This document shows positions 8,855 to 46,044 of a stretch of 64,000 nucleotides of DNA, piece by piece. Position numbers and translations under genes: made by a program. Below the pieces are notes generated by a model. It made no database searches. It saw only the letters and a program-made list of their open reading frames with translations, and had not been told where the DNA came from. Origin of the DNA: an uncultured delta proteobacterium. GTDB taxonomy: Bacteria; Myxococcota_A; Polyangia; Polyangiales; Polyangiaceae. Numbering within the stretch: the first letter of the stretch is position 1; each line of letters starts with the position of its first letter. The stretch is from NCBI GenBank assembly GCA_963782055.1, contig CAWAIF010000003.1:1984001-2048000 (forward strand), given 5' to 3'.

Positions 8855-8869
8855 TAGGATGCGCCCATG
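8855..8869 (+). promoter_or_regulatory. Putative -10 box with leaderless start codon (5' exon of intron copy 1)
   Basis: TAGGAT, 6 nt, ATG; no SD. Confidence 0.55.
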
Positions 8870-10906
8870 GTGCGCCGTGAAGAAGCAGGTCGTCCGTCGG
8901 GCATGCCCGACGAACGACCTGCCTCAAGCTGCGCTTCTCCAGCGGGTGAGAGTCCCGCACCGGTAAGCGTCGGAGCGCCGGGTAGCAGGCCCCAGCCGAG
9001 CGGGAGAGATCCCGTCGGCCGAGCGGGGCGTCGAAAGGGTCCACGGACCGAGCGAGCACGCGGGCCGCAACATGAAGTGAAGCTTGCAGCCTCGTCAGAT
9101 CTACAAACCGGGAGCCGAGCCGATCATGTCGCGGCGAAGGCAATATCGGCGGCGCCAGATCCGAAACGCGCCGTCGGTCCCGGCGGGGTAGGGAGCGCAG
9201 CACGCGTGCAAGGAGGAGTGCGGAACTCGGGAGGCCCGTCTGCGTCGCCCTCGTCGGGGCAAGGCGCGTCGTATAAGCCAGAGGCGAAGTCGGCCGCTGC
9301 GCAGCGGGAGTCCGAGGGGGTCACTGTACCGAAGAGCGAGGCGCGAGCTTCGCGAACGAACGCCGTGAAGAACAACGCGGCAGGAGGGAAAGACCCCTGC
9401 AGTGGTCGTGTCGGCGGAGCAGGTAAGCGCGAGGGCATGGCCGGCGAGACCGGTCCCAACCACCCCCATCGGCGACAGCCCATGGACAAAGTGCGACAAC
9501 TGCAACGCCGGCTGTGTGCCGCGGCCAAGCGGCATCCGGAGCGCCGATTCCACGCGCTGTATGACCGCATCGCGAGGCGTGACGTCCTCGCGGAAGCGTG
9601 GAAGCGGGTAAGGAGGAACAAGGGAGCCGCGGGCGTCGATGCCCAGACGATCGCGGCGCTCGAGGTGTACGGAGTGGATCGACTCCTCGGAGAGATCCAT
9701 GACGTGCTCCGTGCAGGCAGGTACCGGCCGGCAGCGGTGCTGCGCCGGTACATCCCGAAGGCCGATGGGAAGAAGCGGCCGCTTGGGATCCCGACGGTCC
9801 GAGACCGGGTGGTGCAGATGGCGACGAAGCTCGTGCTGGAGCCGATCTTCGAGGCGAGCTTTCGCTCGTGCTCGTACGGCTTCCGTATCGGGCGGAGCGC
9901 GACGGACGCCCTGGAGACGCTGAGGAAGCTCGGCGCGAAGGGGTACAACCACGTGCTCGACGCCGACATCCGTGACTACTTCGGGAGCATCGATCACGAC
10001 AAGCTGATGAAGCTCGTCGAGCGGCGCATCTCGGACCGGAGGGTGCTCAAGCTGCTGCGGCAGTGGCTCACGGCGGGGGTGATGGACGAAGGCACGGTGA
10101 CCAACCCCTCCAGCGGCACGCCGCAGGGCGGGGTGATCTCGCCGCTGCTCTCGAACATCTACCTCGCCGTGCTCGACGACGTGTGGACGAAGCGGTGCGC
10201 GCATCTTGGCGAGCTGGTTCGTTATGCGGACGACTTCGTCGTGATGTGCAGGACGAAGCGTGACGTCGACGAGGCCGAGCTTCGCGTGAAGCACGTGATG
10301 ACGCGACTCGGGCTCGAGCTGCACCCGGACAAGACGAGGAAGCTGGACCTCTCCTGGGGTAAGAAGGGGTTCGACTTCCTCGGCTGCCACCTGCGGAAAC
10401 GCTTGAGCGGGTCCATCTGGGAGAGGTCGCGCAAACGCGTGTACTTCCTCCAGCGCTGGCCATCGGCTCGCGCGATGAAGCGGATCCGGCAGCGCGTGAG
10501 GGACCTCACCCCGCGATCACGCTGCCACGCGGACCTGCGCGACGTCGTCGCGCAGCTCAACCCCGTGCTGCGTGGCTGGGGCGAGTACTTTCGCACCGGG
10601 AACGCCGACGTGAAGTTCAACCGACTCGACGAGTACGTGTACGAACGGCTTCGAGCGCTGCGCCTGAAACGGGCCGGCTCGAAGCTCAAGGCCGGACAAG
10701 CCGAGCGCTGGACCCGCGACTACTTCGTCGAAGGCTTCGGGCTCCACCGCCTGCGCGGGACCATCCGCTACCCGGAGGCCGCGTAATGCCGCGTCACGAG
10801 AGACCACCGGTAAGCCGTGTGCGGGAAATCCGCACGCACGGTTTGAGAGGGGGTCTTGACTCCAACCGCCGCCGTAGGGCGGCCAAGGTGTAAGGATCTA
10901 CCAATG
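8870..10906 (+). mobile_element. Group II intron copy 1 (2037 nt), inserted after the host ATG
   Basis: 5' GTGCG; domain V 10812-10844 with AGC triad; domain VI with bulged A10900; RT ORF; boundaries fixed by comparison with copy 2. Confidence 0.95.
9482..10786 (+). CDS. ltrA: Group II intron RT/maturase without endonuclease domain (frame open from ATG 8867)
   Basis: RPLGIPTVRDR, DADIRDYF, GTPQGGVISPLL, YADD, FDFLG, domain X LNPVLRGWGEYF; no HNH tail. Confidence 0.96.
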   Translation: MDKVRQLQRRLCAAAKRHPERRFHALYDRIARRDVLAEAWKRVRRNKGAAGVDAQTIAALEVYGVDRLLGEIHDVLRAGRYRPAAVLRRYIPKADGKKRPLGIPTVRDRVVQMATKLVLEPIFEASFRSCSYGFRIGRSATDALETLRKLGAKGYNHVLDADIRDYFGSIDHDKLMKLVERRISDRRVLKLLRQWLTAGVMDEGTVTNPSSGTPQGGVISPLLSNIYLAVLDDVWTKRCAHLGELVRYADDFVVMCRTKRDVDEAELRVKHVMTRLGLELHPDKTRKLDLSWGKKGFDFLGCHLRKRLSGSIWERSRKRVYFLQRWPSARAMKRIRQRVRDLTPRSRCHADLRDVVAQLNPVLRGWGEYFRTGNADVKFNRLDEYVYERLRALRLKRAGSKLKAGQAERWTRDYFVEGFGLHRLRGTIRYPEAA

Positions 10907-11560
10907 TCGCACTGGGAGCACCGACCCGAGCCGAAGTGGCGTGAGTTCAAGTTCAACCAGCCGTACGCGAAGGGGCTGAAGCGCCTGCGCGAGGAGGTCC
11001 TCGCCAAGACCGACTTCGACCCCGCGACGCTCTGGCAGTGGGGGACGATGCAGGCGATGGCGCTGATCGAGGTGCTCAAGTCCTGCGAGGCGACCTTCGG
11101 CGCGGAGGGGCAGAAGCTGGTGCAGGACGCGCTCCATCGCGTCGGTCAGGACGTCGGCCGGCAGATCCTGGAGGGTGTGGAGATCCCAGACGACCTGACC
11201 GAGACCGAGTTCATCTCCTTCTACGCCACGGTCATCAACCGCATCCCGTACGCCTCGCTGGAGGCGCCGCGCATCGACGCCGAGGGCAAGGCGACCTTCG
11301 ACATCCTCTGGTGCCCGCACCAGGACCACTACGGCGCCTTCGACTGCCGCGTGCAGCGCTACTTCGTGCAGGGGATGATCGACGCCGCGCGCGAGCACGC
11401 CGCGGGCTTCGGCTTCGAGGTGCGCTTTGACACGACGATCCCGTCGGGGTCGCCGACGTGCCACTTCACGATGTGGAAGCCGACGGAGGAGGAGCGCGCC
11501 GCGTGGGAGGGCACGACGAAGCTGATCGAGGACAAGGCGCTCGCCCGCGCGAAGCGGTAG
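10904..11560 (+). CDS. Hypothetical protein, host gene of intron copy 1 (possible V4R/ATC-hydrolase-like fold)
   Basis: 218-aa ORF with WCPH, DC and CHF motifs; ATG supplied by the intron end or by 8867 after splicing. Confidence 0.75.
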   Translation: MSHWEHRPEPKWREFKFNQPYAKGLKRLREEVLAKTDFDPATLWQWGTMQAMALIEVLKSCEATFGAEGQKLVQDALHRVGQDVGRQILEGVEIPDDLTETEFISFYATVINRIPYASLEAPRIDAEGKATFDILWCPHQDHYGAFDCRVQRYFVQGMIDAAREHAAGFGFEVRFDTTIPSGSPTCHFTMWKPTEEERAAWEGTTKLIEDKALARAKR

Positions 11561-18607: not shown

Positions 18608-18623
18608 AACGGTCGTGCCCATG

Positions 18624-20660
18624 GTGCGCCGTGAAGAAGCAGGTCGTCCGTCGGGCATGCCCGACGAACGACCTGCCTCAAGCTGCGCTTCTCCAGCGGG
18701 TGAGAGTCCCGCACCGGTAAGCGTCGGAGCGCCGGGTAGCAGGCCCCAGCCGAGCGGGAGAGATCCCGTCGGCCGAGCGGGGCGTCGAAAGGGTCCACGG
18801 ACCGAGCGAGCACGCGGGCCGCAACATGAAGTGAAGCTTGCAGCCTCGTCAGATCTACAAACCGGGAGCCGAGCCGATCATGTCGCGGCGAAGGCAATAT
18901 CGGCGGCGCCAGATCCGAAACGCGCCGTCGGTCCCGGCGGGGTAGGGAGCGCAGCACGCGTGCAAGGAGGAGTGCGGAACTCGGGAGGCCCGTCTGCGTC
19001 GCCCTCGTCGGGGCAAGGCGCGTCGTATAAGCCAGAGGCGAAGTCGGCCGCTGCGCAGCGGGAGTCCGAGGGGGTCACTGTACCGAAGAGCGAGGCGCGA
19101 GCTTCGCGAACGAACGCCGTGAAGAACAACGCGGCAGGAGGGAAAGACCCCTGCAGTGGTCGTGTCGGCGGAGCAGGTAAGCGCGAGGGCATGGCCGGCG
19201 AGACCGGTCCCAACCACCCCCATCGGCGACAGCCCATGGACAAAGTGCGACAACTGCAACGCCGGCTGTGTGCCGCGGCCAAGCGGCATCCGGAGCGCCG
19301 ATTCCACGCGCTGTATGACCGCATCGCGAGGCGTGACGTCCTCGCGGAAGCGTGGAAGCGGGTAAGGAGGAACAAGGGAGCCGCGGGCGTCGATGCCCAG
19401 ACGATCGCGGCGCTCGAGGTGTACGGAGTGGATCGACTCCTCGGAGAGATCCATGACGTGCTCCGTGCAGGCAGGTACCGGCCGGCAGCGGTGCTGCGCC
19501 GGTACATCCCGAAGGCCGATGGGAAGAAGCGGCCGCTTGGGATCCCGACGGTCCGAGACCGGGTGGTGCAGATGGCGACGAAGCTCGTGCTGGAGCCGAT
19601 CTTCGAGGCGAGCTTTCGCTCGTGCTCGTACGGCTTCCGTATCGGGCGGAGCGCGACGGACGCCCTGGAGACGCTGAGGAAGCTCGGCGCGAAGGGGTAC
19701 AACCACGTGCTCGACGCCGACATCCGTGACTACTTCGGGAGCATCGATCACGACAAGCTGATGAAGCTCGTCGAGCGGCGCATCTCGGACCGGAGGGTGC
19801 TCAAGCTGCTGCGGCAGTGGCTCACGGCGGGGGTGATGGACGAAGGCACGGTGACCAACCCCTCCAGCGGCACGCCGCAGGGCGGGGTGATCTCGCCGCT
19901 GCTCTCGAACATCTACCTCGCCGTGCTCGACGACGTGTGGACGAAGCGGTGCGCGCATCTTGGCGAGCTGGTTCGTTATGCGGACGACTTCGTCGTGATG
20001 TGCAGGACGAAGCGTGACGTCGACGAGGCCGAGCTTCGCGTGAAGCACGTGATGACGCGACTCGGGCTCGAGCTGCACCCGGACAAGACGAGGAAGCTGG
20101 ACCTCTCCTGGGGTAAGAAGGGGTTCGACTTCCTCGGCTGCCACCTGCGGAAACGCTTGAGCGGGTCCATCTGGGAGAGGTCGCGCAAACGCGTGTACTT
20201 CCTCCAGCGCTGGCCATCGGCTCGCGCGATGAAGCGGATCCGGCAGCGCGTGAGGGACCTCACCCCGCGATCACGCTGCCACGCGGACCTGCGCGACGTC
20301 GTCGCGCAGCTCAACCCCGTGCTGCGTGGCTGGGGCGAGTACTTTCGCACCGGGAACGCCGACGTGAAGTTCAACCGACTCGACGAGTACGTGTACGAAC
20401 GGCTTCGAGCGCTGCGCCTGAAACGGGCCGGCTCGAAGCTCAAGGCCGGACAAGCCGAGCGCTGGACCCGCGACTACTTCGTCGAAGGCTTCGGGCTCCA
20501 CCGCCTGCGCGGGACCATCCGCTACCCGGAGGCCGCGTAATGCCGCGTCACGAGAGACCACCGGTAAGCCGTGTGCGGGAAATCCGCACGCACGGTTTGA
20601 GAGGGGGTCTTGACTCCAACCGCCGCCGTAGGGCGGCCAAGGTGTAAGGATCTACCAATG
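18624..20660 (+). mobile_element. Group II intron copy 2 (2037 nt), inserted after the host ATG
   Basis: Matches copy 1 at offset 9754; shared internal ORF translations are identical. Confidence 0.95.
19236..20540 (+). CDS. ltrA: Group II intron RT/maturase (frame open from ATG 18621)
   Basis: Same protein as copy 1; YADD. Confidence 0.96.
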   Translation: MDKVRQLQRRLCAAAKRHPERRFHALYDRIARRDVLAEAWKRVRRNKGAAGVDAQTIAALEVYGVDRLLGEIHDVLRAGRYRPAAVLRRYIPKADGKKRPLGIPTVRDRVVQMATKLVLEPIFEASFRSCSYGFRIGRSATDALETLRKLGAKGYNHVLDADIRDYFGSIDHDKLMKLVERRISDRRVLKLLRQWLTAGVMDEGTVTNPSSGTPQGGVISPLLSNIYLAVLDDVWTKRCAHLGELVRYADDFVVMCRTKRDVDEAELRVKHVMTRLGLELHPDKTRKLDLSWGKKGFDFLGCHLRKRLSGSIWERSRKRVYFLQRWPSARAMKRIRQRVRDLTPRSRCHADLRDVVAQLNPVLRGWGEYFRTGNADVKFNRLDEYVYERLRALRLKRAGSKLKAGQAERWTRDYFVEGFGLHRLRGTIRYPEAA

Positions 20661-21068
20661 CGCTCCCTTCTCCTCGCTCTCCTCTCGGCGTCCTCCCTCG
20701 CGCTCGGCGCATGCGGCGGCGTGGCCGTGGACACCTCCTCCGACGCCGGCGCGGGCGCGGACGGCGGTCACGACGCCGCGACCTCCCCCGTCACGTGTCA
20801 GGGCAAGACGTGCGGCGCGGGGGAGGTGTGCGTGGTCACCACCTCCGGCGGCGGCCCGTGCCTCCTGCCTGACGACGCGGGGGTCTGTCCCGACGGCACC
20901 CACACCACCGGCTGCTGCGACAACACGACCACCGGCTACGCGTGCAAGCCGCTCCCCGCCGCATGCAAGGGCAGCCTCGCGTGCCCGTGCGCGGACACGC
21001 TCTGCCAGTGCGGCGGCTGCCAGGTCGCCGACGCGGGCGTGCTCGCGTGCCAGTGCCTGTATCCCTGA
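20658..21068 (+). CDS. Cys-rich lipoprotein, host gene of intron copy 2
   Basis: Complete signal peptide MRSLLLALLSASSLALGAC begins exactly at the intron-terminal ATG. Confidence 0.85.
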   Translation: MRSLLLALLSASSLALGACGGVAVDTSSDAGAGADGGHDAATSPVTCQGKTCGAGEVCVVTTSGGGPCLLPDDAGVCPDGTHTTGCCDNTTTGYACKPLPAACKGSLACPCADTLCQCGGCQVADAGVLACQCLYP

Positions 21069-31820: not shown

Positions 31821-31893
31821 GGGGCCGTAGCTCAGCTGGGAGAGCGCATCCATGGCATGGATGAGGTCAGGGGTTCGATCCCCCTCGGCTCCA
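31821..31893 (+). tRNA. tRNA-Ala(GGC)
   Basis: Cloverleaf; G3:U70; anticodon arm CATCC-ATGGCAT-GGATG; GTTCGATC; CCA not encoded. Confidence 0.96.
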
Positions 31894-45207: not shown

Positions 45208-46044
45208 ATGCGATCGAACCTGCCCTTTTCTCTCGTCCTTGCGGCCGTTGCCGTTGTCCCCCTCGTCGTCATCGCGTGCGGTGGGAGCGACAATCCCCCG
45301 CCGCAGACCGCCAACAACGCCGCGCAGCCGCAGGGCTACCCGCCCCCGCAGCAAGGGTATCCGCCGCAGCAGGGCTACCCGCAGCAGGGCTACCCGCAGC
45401 AGCAGGGCTACCCTCCGCAGCAGCAGGGCTACCCCCCGCAGCAGGGCTACCCGCCGCCGCAGGGCACCGCGCCGCCGGCGTACACCGCGCCGCCGCAGGG
45501 CACGGCGCCGCCGGCGTACACCGCGCCGCCGCCGCAGGGCACCGCGCCGCCGCCTGCGGGCACAGGCACCTTCGCCATTCCCTCCACGCTCCCGACGTTC
45601 GGGGCGCCGCCGCAGGGCAACGCGCCGGCGGGCGCGCCCGCGCAGGCGATCAACCCGATGCTGGCCAGCGCCGCCACCATGCCTCTCGGCGCCTTCGCGG
45701 CGACCGAGGCGCCCGGCATGGCACGGGAGGGCAACATCAACGCGGCCAACTTCCAGCAAGGCCAGATCCAGGAGGTGCCGGTCACCCTCCAGCCGGGCAA
45801 GTGCTACACGGTGCTCGCCGTCGGGATCGGCATCCAGAACGTGGACATCGCCCTCATCGCCACCACGCCCATCCCCAACGTCAACCCGGTGCTCGCGCAG
45901 GACAACGGCACCGGCTCGCAGGCGTCGCTGGGCGGCAAGGGAAACTGCTACCGGCTGCCGGTGCCCATCACGGTGCAGGCGAAGTATGTCGTCCGGGCGA
46001 CCGCCGGGGCGGGGCTGGCGGCGAGCGCGCTCTTCGTGAAGTGA
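45208..46044 (+). CDS. Lipoprotein with (P)PQQGY repeats
   Basis: Lipobox VIAC; coding repeats ~45330-45555. Confidence 0.85.
   Translation: MRSNLPFSLVLAAVAVVPLVVIACGGSDNPPPQTANNAAQPQGYPPPQQGYPPQQGYPQQGYPQQQGYPPQQQGYPPQQGYPPPQGTAPPAYTAPPQGTAPPAYTAPPPQGTAPPPAGTGTFAIPSTLPTFGAPPQGNAPAGAPAQAINPMLASAATMPLGAFAATEAPGMAREGNINAANFQQGQIQEVPVTLQPGKCYTVLAVGIGIQNVDIALIATTPIPNVNPVLAQDNGTGSQASLGGKGNCYRLPVPITVQAKYVVRATAGAGLAASALFVK

What the first reader, a model, noticed from the sequence alone, without database searches (positions are those of the whole stretch)
9114..9141. Putative EBS1 is CAUG, an anti-start-codon guide
Seen: stem-loop GCC-GA-GCCG-[ATCATGTCG]-CGGC-GAA-GGC. Its loop CATG (9125-9128) is complementary to the CATG ending both 5' exons, and pairing stops after 4 bp. 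This register puts the 5' splice site right after the G of ATG. Inference: this is domain Id3/EBS1. Four bp cannot give specificity in a genome, so another cue must contribute, such as the shared GYGCCC upstream, an open promoter complex, or IEP recognition.
Basis: partly seen in the sequence, partly recalled or inferred. Interest (0 to 1): 0.72.

Follow-up and report, generated by a model that had tools for sequence, protein, structure and literature searches.

The report
Intron guide loop reads start codons
The four-base loop CAUG is indeed the guide by which a mobile self-splicing intron recognises the start codon of genes transcribed without a leader, and it belongs to a widespread intron family with an unusual, apparently undescribed way of choosing its landing sites.

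Summary
Observation confirmed. The hairpin 9114-9141 exists as written and lies in domain I of a 2037-nt group II intron (8870-10906; identical copy at 18624-20660; 9 5' junctions in the genome).

The interpretation as EBS1 is supported by covariation, not just by complementarity. In 72 junctions (own genome plus relatives from many phyla), exon -1 to -4 pair with loop nt 9125-9128 in 72, 71, 72 and 67 cases. Pairing falls to background at -5 to -7 (32, 31, 15). CAC loops go with GTG start codons.

One more base pair exists: G9191 (EBS3) covaries with the first base after the intron's own terminal AUG (56 of 61).

The shared GYGCCC is not a cue (2 of 9 own junctions). The shared cue is a -10-like TAnnnT box 6-8 nt upstream of the start codon (66 of 71 perfect, against 0.9% of genomic CATG[CT] sites). 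The family therefore sits exactly behind the start codons of leaderless genes.

The reading frame from the host ATG stays open through the ribozyme into the reverse transcriptase in 57 of 68 introns.

How promoter context is sensed is inferred, not shown. This scan met the family before on other DNA. I found no description in print, but could not read Michel et al. 2007.

The parts
8855..8860 (+). -10-like box TAGGAT of the host gene, 6 nt upstream of the start codon (copy 1)
   Evidence: Read. Across junctions, 66 of 71 have a perfect TAnnnT ending 4-8 nt before the start codon, 68 of the 71 boxes (perfect or partial) at 6-8 nt. Only 0.86% of genomic CATG[CT] sites have one at 6-8 nt. No -35 element was found.
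8866..8869 (+). IBS1 = CATG, the last four bases of the 5' exon. ATG 8867-8869 is the host gene's original start codon.
   Evidence: The intron-free orthologue in a same-genus genome has one ATG directly after a similar promoter stretch.
8870..10906 (+). Group II intron, copy 1 (GUGCG...CUACCAAUG, 2037 nt)
   Evidence: Rfam hits RF02003, RF02005 and RF00029. Eight full or nearly full identical copies plus fragments occur in the genome. The boundaries are fixed by EBS1/IBS1 and EBS3/IBS3 covariation.
9114..9141 (+). EBS1 hairpin of domain I (the finding)
9125..9128 (+). EBS1 5'-CAUG-3'. C9125:G-1, A9126:U-2, U9127:A-3, G9128:C-4.
   Evidence: Pairing in 72/72, 71/72, 72/72 and 67/72 junctions. 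The column scan agrees, as does the cluster-level permutation test.
9191..9191 (+). EBS3 (G), pairs with the first base of the 3' exon
   Evidence: Best of all alignment columns: 56 of 61 Watson-Crick (58 with wobble), next best 30 of 61. Own copies have C in 8 of 9 and T in 1 of 9 at +1.
9437..10786 (+). Intron-encoded protein (449 aa, RVT_1 + GIIM, no endonuclease domain) counted from the conserved internal ATG. The frame is already open from the host ATG at 8867 (639 codons).
   Evidence: The frame from the host xTG stays open for at least 600 codons in 57 of 68 introns. The internal Met is conserved in 55 of 57.
10813..10844 (+). Domain V
   Evidence: Rfam RF00029 match 10810-10907; sequence read.
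10849..10902 (+). Domain VI, with bulged A10900 as the candidate branch point 7 nt from the 3' end
   Evidence: MFE folds of 17 diverse introns: 16 show GG:CC, then the bulged A, then a 4-nt tail.
10904..10906 (+). The intron's last three bases, AUG, in frame with the host ORF (a replacement start codon)
   Evidence: All 9 own 3' ends share ...CTACCAATG and then diverge. By eye, all 79 relatives printed end in ACYN(A/G)TG. The downstream frame is open for at least 100 codons in 57 of 68.
10907..10907 (+). IBS3, the first base of the 3' exon (T here, G:U with G9191)
18624..20660 (+). Group II intron, copy 2. Identical to copy 1 over the 300 nt aligned and over 2037 nt. EBS1 at 18879-18882, IBS1 at 18620-18623, IBS3 is C20661. 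The host gene starts with a lipoprotein-like signal peptide.

Best explanation
The hairpin loop 9125-9128 (5'-CAUG) is exon-binding site 1 of a mobile group II intron. It pairs with the last four bases of the 5' exon: the base before the start codon plus the start codon itself. A second contact, G9191 (EBS3), pairs with the first base after the insertion point. The RNA therefore reads only five bases, N'AUG|N. The intron belongs to a family that, in many phyla, sits exactly between the start codon and the second codon of genes whose -10 promoter box lies 6-8 nt upstream of that codon, that is, leaderless genes. It has no EBS2 partner, ends in its own AUG, and keeps its reading frame open from the host AUG into the reverse transcriptase. 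Shown: the pairings, the boundaries, the promoter-box association, the open frame. Inferred: five base pairs cannot explain the site choice, so the particle must also sense the transcription-start context. Most likely it uses the single-stranded non-template strand of an open or initially transcribing promoter complex, perhaps together with access at the replication fork. Also inferred: EBS1 (same letters as the initiator tRNA anticodon, CAU) and the ribosome compete for the 5'-terminal AUG, which would switch the transcript between making the protein and splicing.
For: The hairpin is real and conserved. Exon -1..-4 pair with 9125..9128 in 72/72, 71/72, 72/72 and 67/72 junctions; -5..-7 pair in 32, 31 and 15 of 72. 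The -3 pairs are A:U 64, G:C 3, G:U 5. The -4 pairs are C:G 50, G:U 11, G:C 4, A:U 1, U:A 1, with 5 mismatches. At cluster level 49/53 pair, and 0 of 20000 shuffles reach that. The unbiased column scan picks 9127 and 9128, and finds no partner for -5..-12. EBS3 at 9191 pairs in 56/61, against 30/61 for the next best column. A TAnnnT box occurs in 66/71 junctions, with variable spacing of 6, 7 or 8 nt (41, 19, 8). By contrast, only 192 of 22,311 genomic CATG[CT] sites have such a box. All 9 own junctions and 71 of 72 junctions overall follow an ATG/GTG. An intron-free orthologue has a single ATG behind a similar promoter stretch. The frame is open from the host xTG in 57/68 introns, while the other frames stop after 3-76 codons. 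The IEP has only RVT_1 and GIIM. All 9 own 5' junctions are co-directional with replication as inferred from GC skew (maximum at 3.5 Mb of C3) and dnaA on the neighbouring contig.
Against: No experiment or read evidence shows the transcription start, the splice junctions or the branch point. The RNA contigs found cover only the intron interior. The -10 boxes are consensus matches only: no -35 element was found (TTG in 3 of 65), and the sigma-70 scan found no promoter at either window copy. Five of 72 junctions mismatch at -4. One junction (L072) ends in AGG. A conserved internal Met (55/57) means the protein could be made in the ordinary way, and the open upstream frame could have another cause. 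The replication-orientation count has no baseline for gene-strand bias, and the skew is weak outside 1.5-5.25 Mb. Many relatives come from metagenome bins and are kin, so the junctions are not all independent (55 clusters).
Confidence: 0.8

Rival explanations
1. Five base pairs are all the targeting there is. The intron lands at any N'ATG|N site, and only copies that land behind a leaderless start codon are expressed and multiply, so only those are seen.
For: The reading frame from the host ATG into the IEP is open in 57/68 introns, so expression may depend on the host start codon. Group II IEPs act mainly on the RNA they were made from (established knowledge, recalled).
Against: Dead-end copies at neutral sites should stay visible. 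The genome has 22,311 CATG[CT] sites, of which 192 carry a -10-like box. Yet all 9 own junctions carry a perfect (7) or partial (2) box, and 66 of 71 junctions overall carry a perfect one. No copy was found elsewhere.
Confidence: 0.12
2. The intron-encoded protein reads the -10 hexamer directly as double-stranded DNA sequence, as LtrA reads distal target positions.
For: TAnnnT is the only conserved upstream feature.
Against: The spacing to the insertion point varies (6, 7, 8 nt in 41, 19, 8 junctions). That fits start-site selection by RNA polymerase better than a rigid protein contact. The IEP has no DNA-binding or endonuclease domain detectable by Pfam.
Confidence: 0.1
3. The target is RNA. 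The intron reverse-splices into the 5' end of leaderless mRNAs (pppAUG|N) and reaches the genome by reverse transcription and recombination.
For: It would explain the restriction to leaderless genes without any DNA cue.
Against: Exon -4 lies upstream of the inferred transcription start, yet covaries with 9128 (67/72; 49/53 clusters). So the recognised molecule contains -4.
Confidence: 0.05
4. EBS1 lies in another loop, and the CAUG complementarity is a coincidence of a palindromic tetramer.
For: CATG is self-complementary and common (46,635 sites in the genome).
Against: The covariation at two variable positions is specific to this loop in a scan of all D1-D3 columns.
Confidence: 0.02

Closest known systems
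Bacterial class C (IIC) group II introns (e.g. GsI-IIC, O.i.I1, B.h.I1), which insert after transcription-terminator or attC hairpins
   Same: Short EBS1-IBS1 (3-4 bp; recalled, and described in the introduction of PMC12584367, read). One-base EBS3. No EBS2-IBS2 (none found). An IEP without an endonuclease domain. Among solved structures the IEP is closest to GsI-IIC RT (E 3.6e-57). Both need a non-sequence cue in the 5' exon.
   Different: The cue here is not a DNA hairpin. The 5' exons are less structured than control stretches (-5.54 vs -7.35 kcal/mol) and carry a -10 box plus a start codon instead. The intron ends in AUG, and its ORF is in frame with the exon.
[quoted passage not shown] 2025, PMC12584367)
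   Same: Group II introns tied to start or stop codons. The groEL intron also re-creates a codon (a stop) on insertion (introduction of PMC12584367).
   Different: That lineage is defined by a 300-700 nt insertion near the 5' end of domain I. Here EBS1 lies only 199-271 nt from the 5' end, so no such insertion exists. The targets here are many unrelated genes, not one housekeeping gene. I could not read Michel et al. 2007 itself, so overlap with its 'initiation codon' members cannot be excluded.
Yeast mitochondrial introns aI1 and aI2 of cox1
   Same: The IEP reading frame is continuous with the upstream exon and runs through domains I-III (recalled textbook knowledge, not from a call).
   Different: Those exons are long coding exons in an organelle. 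Here the 'exon' part of the frame is just the start codon of a bacterial leaderless gene.
RmInt1 (class D) and other endonuclease-less introns that use replication forks
   Same: No endonuclease domain. All 9 own 5' junctions are oriented so that the invaded strand would be the lagging-strand template (the known bias is recalled).
   Different: RmInt1 uses long EBS1 and EBS2 pairings and targets an insertion sequence, not promoters or start codons (recalled).

Membership tests
Group II intron (mobile, ORF-containing) | Conserved 5' end GUGYG and ribozyme domains I-VI, including domain V | tested here: met
   GTGCG at 8870. Rfam RF02003, RF02005 and RF00029 all score above their gathering thresholds.
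Group II intron (mobile, ORF-containing) | EBS1-IBS1 pairing between a domain I loop and the end of the 5' exon | tested here: met
   Covariation in 72 junctions, in 55 clusters, and in the column scan.
Group II intron (mobile, ORF-containing) | Domain VI with a bulged adenosine 7-8 nt from the 3' splice site | tested here: met
   16 of 17 MFE folds show a bulged A 7 nt from the end (A10900). Branching itself was not tested.
Group II intron (mobile, ORF-containing) | Canonical 3' end AY | tested here: not met
   The intron ends in UG (…CCAAUG). The boundary is set by EBS3 covariation with the next base and by where the copies diverge.
Group II intron (mobile, ORF-containing) | Intron-encoded reverse transcriptase with a maturase (X) domain | tested here: met
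   Pfam RVT_1 (5e-37) and GIIM (6e-17).
Class C (IIC) introns | Insertion downstream of a terminator or attC stem-loop | tested here: not met
   The 5' exons are less structured than controls. A -10 box and a start codon are found instead.
Class C (IIC) introns | Short EBS1, EBS3 present, no EBS2 | tested here: met
Class C (IIC) introns | IEP falls in phylogenetic class C | not tested
   Only similarity to solved structures was seen (best hit GsI-IIC RT). No tree with class references was built, because no reference set was on hand.
IIB1 start/stop-codon lineage (Michel et al. 2007) | 300-700 nt insertion in the basal internal loop of domain I | tested here: not met
   The distance from the 5' end to the EBS1 hairpin is 199-271 nt in all introns measured.
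IIB1 start/stop-codon lineage (Michel et al. 2007) | Insertion in or next to initiation or termination codons | tested here: met
   71 of 72 junctions follow ATG/GTG.
IIB1 start/stop-codon lineage (Michel et al. 2007) | IIB1 ribozyme structure with a CL-type IEP carrying an endonuclease domain | tested here: inconclusive
   No endonuclease domain was found. The ribozyme subclass was not assigned. The defining paper could not be read.

The most novel reading that the evidence does not exclude
The intron particle uses the transcription bubble of leaderless promoters as its DNA target. EBS1 and EBS3 read positions -1 to +4 of the non-template strand while RNA polymerase holds it open, so a retroelement homes to transcription start sites rather than to a sequence. 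The same four-base guide, an initiator-anticodon look-alike, then competes with the ribosome for the 5'-terminal AUG and switches each transcript between translation of the reverse transcriptase and splicing.
Probability: 0.3. Interest if true: 0.9.

Novelty: new variant of a known kind. Interest (0 to 1): 0.72.

Why it matters
Group II introns are usually steered by 11-14 base pairs, or in class C by a DNA hairpin. Here a family spread over many bacterial phyla is steered by only five base pairs plus the context of a transcription and translation start.

If the context cue is the open promoter complex, this would be a retroelement that homes to active start sites. It would also be a natural tool that marks leaderless promoters. 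The design also suggests how an intron can live inside a start codon without a promoter or ribosome-binding site of its own. It borrows the host promoter and AUG, keeps its protein in frame, and hands back an AUG at its 3' end.

The EBS1 and EBS3 positions defined here make direct retargeting tests possible.

Tried and rejected
1. The 'shared GYGCCC' cue is present in only 2 of 9 own junctions, and positions -9..-5 carry little information. Rejected.

2. A 3' splice site after CUAC, with CAAUG as exon. Rejected for three reasons. All copies carry CAAUG before unrelated ORFs. EBS3 covaries with the base after AUG. D6 folds place the bulged A 7 nt from the AUG end.

3. A unit ATGGTGCG...CCA inserted before the start codon. 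Rejected. Near-identical copies differ at the 5' xTG but not at the 3' one (own genome 8 ATG + 1 GTG; L076 GTG vs L077 ATG). IBS1 must also abut the 5' splice site.

4. A conserved Shine-Dalgarno element at the intron's 3' end. AAGGA (10892-10896) is part of the D6 stem and is absent in several relatives (e.g. L045, L093). Not a family feature.

5. An EBS2-type pairing. No column stands out for exon -5..-12.

6. The sigma-70 promoter scan found nothing at either copy, and no -35 motif appears.

7. RNA evidence. Contigs from four metatranscriptome runs match the intron interior 8918-10852 with no differences, apart from six C>T in one X6 contig and one or two letters in two short X3 pieces. They do not reach either junction or the flanks. 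They give no information on starts, splicing or expression.

8. Literature. Searches linking group II introns with leaderless genes or start codons gave nothing relevant. Term searches within Zimmerly & Semper 2015 for start codon or ATG and for altered splice sites or promoter returned no passage about start-codon targeting. Term searches in Toro & Martinez-Abarca 2013 had no matches. Simon et al. 2008 is not held. Michel et al. 2007 was not looked for and is known only from the introduction and reference list of PMC12584367.

9. Assignment to an IEP class was not possible without reference sequences.

Full report
**What is there.** The window holds two identical copies of a group II intron, at 8870-10906 and 18624-20660.

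- Rfam places three group II models on each copy.
- The hairpin 9114-9141 falls inside the D1D4-6 match as a stem-loop with a 9-nt loop.
- The intron encodes a 449-aa protein with reverse-transcriptase and maturase domains only.
- The whole genome (7.58 Mb, 72% G+C) has nine 5' ends and nine 3' ends of the element. Seven are full copies of 2037 nt, one is nearly full, and the rest are fragments. All are 100% identical where aligned.

**The observation.** Both window copies, and all nine genomic 5' junctions, have C at exon -4. Eight of nine have ATG and one has GTG directly before GTGCG. Complementarity to the loop CAUG stops after four pairs.

**Is the loop EBS1?** I fetched 80 related loci through the intron protein. 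They share 56-90% identity and come from Myxococcota, Acidobacteriota, Beta- and Gammaproteobacteria, Planctomycetota, Actinomycetes and other groups.

- The hairpin is conserved as GCCGAGC-CGnUCAUnUCnCGGCGAAGGC.
- RNAalifold on 33 sequences predicts it inside a three-way junction whose enclosing stems covary strongly.
- Pairing between the exon and loop positions 9125-9128, in 72 junctions with at least 8 nt of exon:

| Exon position | Junctions paired (of 72) |
|---|---|
| -1 | 72 |
| -2 | 71 |
| -3 | 72 |
| -4 | 67 |
| -5 | 32 |
| -6 | 31 |
| -7 | 15 |

- Two positions vary and covary. The loop reads CAC instead of CAU in L034, L040, L041, L078 and L090, and all five have a GTG start codon.
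- The fourth loop base is G, U, C or A and matches exon -4: C:G 50, G:U 11, G:C 4, A:U 1, U:A 1, with 5 mismatches.
- Counting one value per cluster of at least 95% identical introns (55 clusters), 49 of 53 pair. None of 20000 shuffles reaches that.
- Very close relatives differ in step. L062, L063 and L075 have loop C with exon G. L073 and L074 have loop G with exon C. L072 has loop G, but its odd exon ends in AGG with A at -4.
- A scan of every alignment column of domains I-III picks 9127 as the best partner of exon -3 and 9128 as the best partner of exon -4 (52 of 57 against 42 of 57 for the next column). It finds nothing for -5 to -12.

The loop is therefore EBS1. It is four bases long, and there is no EBS2-type pairing.

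**A fifth pair and the 3' boundary.** All copies and all 79 relatives printed share ...CUACC(A)AUG, with some AGUG, UAUG and CAUG variants. After that they diverge into unrelated ORFs.

- Scanning all columns against the first base after that AUG gives one clear partner: intron position 322, window G9191. It pairs by Watson-Crick in 56 of 61 introns, against 30 of 61 for the next best column.
- Folds of domain VI in 17 diverse introns give the same picture in 16. Two G:C pairs are followed by a bulged A (A10900) and a 4-nt tail, AAUG. That is the usual branch-point geometry, 7 nt from the end.
- The intron therefore ends in AUG, not in the usual AY, and that AUG is in frame with the host ORF.
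- The downstream frame is open for at least 100 codons in 57 of 68 junctions, against 9 and 33 for the other two frames.
- An intron-free orthologue of the copy-1 host gene in a same-genus genome reads ...GATGATGCGCGC ATG GCG CAC TGG. It has one ATG behind a promoter stretch like the one at 8855-8866.

**The extra cue.**

- What all sites share is a TAnnnT box. It is perfect in 66 of 71 junctions and partial in the other five. Counting perfect and partial boxes, it ends 6, 7 or 8 nt before the start codon in 41, 19 and 8 cases, and 4-5 nt before it in the remaining 3.
- No -35 motif accompanies it, and the simple sigma-70 scan finds nothing. The promoter reading therefore rests on the -10 box and its spacing.
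- The genome has 22,311 CATG[CT] sites, and only 192 (0.86%) carry such a box.
- If landing were random among matching sites, nearly all copies would lie elsewhere, and neutral ones would persist. None does. I therefore infer a mechanistic cue tied to the transcription start.
- The variable spacing argues for the start-site context rather than a rigid protein contact with the hexamer.
- Covariation at -4, which lies upstream of the inferred start, argues that the target is DNA and not the leaderless mRNA.
- All nine own 5' junctions point the same way as replication, judged from the cumulative GC-skew maximum at 3.5 Mb of contig C3 and dnaA on the neighbouring contig. I have no baseline for gene-strand bias, so this is only suggestive.

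**The reading frame.**

- From the host ATG at 8867 the frame runs open for 639 codons through domains I-III into the IEP.
- The same holds in 57 of 68 introns, although their lengths differ (1937-2086 nt). The other two frames stop after 3-76 codons.
- Three of the eleven exceptions differ by one base in length from in-frame sister copies.
- An internal Met at 9437 is also conserved (55 of 57), so both starts are possible.
- I infer that ribosomes starting on the 5'-terminal AUG read into the IEP, as earlier notes of this scan suggested. Translation itself was not shown.
- EBS1 has the letters of the initiator tRNA anticodon (recalled). Pairing and initiation on the same AUG should therefore exclude each other.

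**Comparison with what is known.**

- The family works like class C introns: short EBS1, EBS3, no EBS2, no endonuclease, and a context cue.
- It fails their defining feature. The 5' exons hold no hairpin.
- The IIB1 lineage at start and stop codons is defined by a 300-700 nt insertion in domain I (introduction of PMC12584367). That cannot exist here, because EBS1 lies 199-271 nt from the 5' end.
- Term searches of the 2015 review of group II intron evolution for start codon or ATG, and for altered splice sites or promoter, returned no passage about start-codon targeting.
- No paper in the held library links group II introns with leaderless genes.
- Michel et al. 2007 and Simon et al. 2008 could not be read.
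- This scan met the family four times before on other DNA.

**Verdict.** Its first candidate is wrong, and its second (the open promoter complex) is the best available inference but is untested.

Noticed in passing
L071, L092-L095 (UCGCG); L090, L096 (UUGCG); L040, L041 (GAGCG); L072-L074 (GUGUG): Several relatives start with a non-canonical 5' end instead of GUGCG. Some of them still have multiple identical copies in one genome (L092-L095), so they seem to be mobile.
   Followed up: partly
3' terminal triplet of the introns (window 10904-10906) versus EBS1 type: GUG instead of AUG at the intron's 3' end occurs in 3 of 5 clusters with a CAC loop, but in only 3 of 48 with a CAU loop (Fisher p = 0.008). 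The intron's own last three bases could pair with EBS1 as an IBS1 look-alike. The sample is small and the clusters are related.
   Followed up: partly
G000:C3:2503251-2504075 and 2517652-2518302 (outside the window): Two truncated intron pieces lie in opposite orientation 14 kb apart. One carries the only GTG junction. They are flanked by weak Bac_DnaA-like hits of the kind given by IS21-type helper ATPases (2504274-2504588, 2520224-2520538). This looks like IS insertion and inversion between intron copies.
   Followed up: no
window 8882-8925: A long, near-perfect inverted repeat lies just inside the intron's 5' end (self-match 91%). Its sequence and length differ freely among relatives. Its role is unknown.
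   Followed up: no
window 45323-45650: Tandem 18-21-nt repeats that would encode a Pro/Gln/Gly/Tyr-rich low-complexity protein stretch.
   Followed up: no
window 31821-31893: A tRNA gene (Rfam RF00005, 61 bits).
   Followed up: no
window 8918-10852: Soil metatranscriptome contigs, from two coded studies among the four runs laid, match the intron interior with no differences, apart from six C>T in one X6 contig and one or two letters in two short X3 pieces. No contig covers the host flanks. This could reflect stable intron RNA, the multi-copy nature of the element, or DNA carry-over.
   Followed up: partly
window 20658-20720: The host gene of copy 2 begins MRSLLLALLSASSLALGAC, a lipoprotein-type signal peptide, straight after the intron's terminal ATG.
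   Followed up: no
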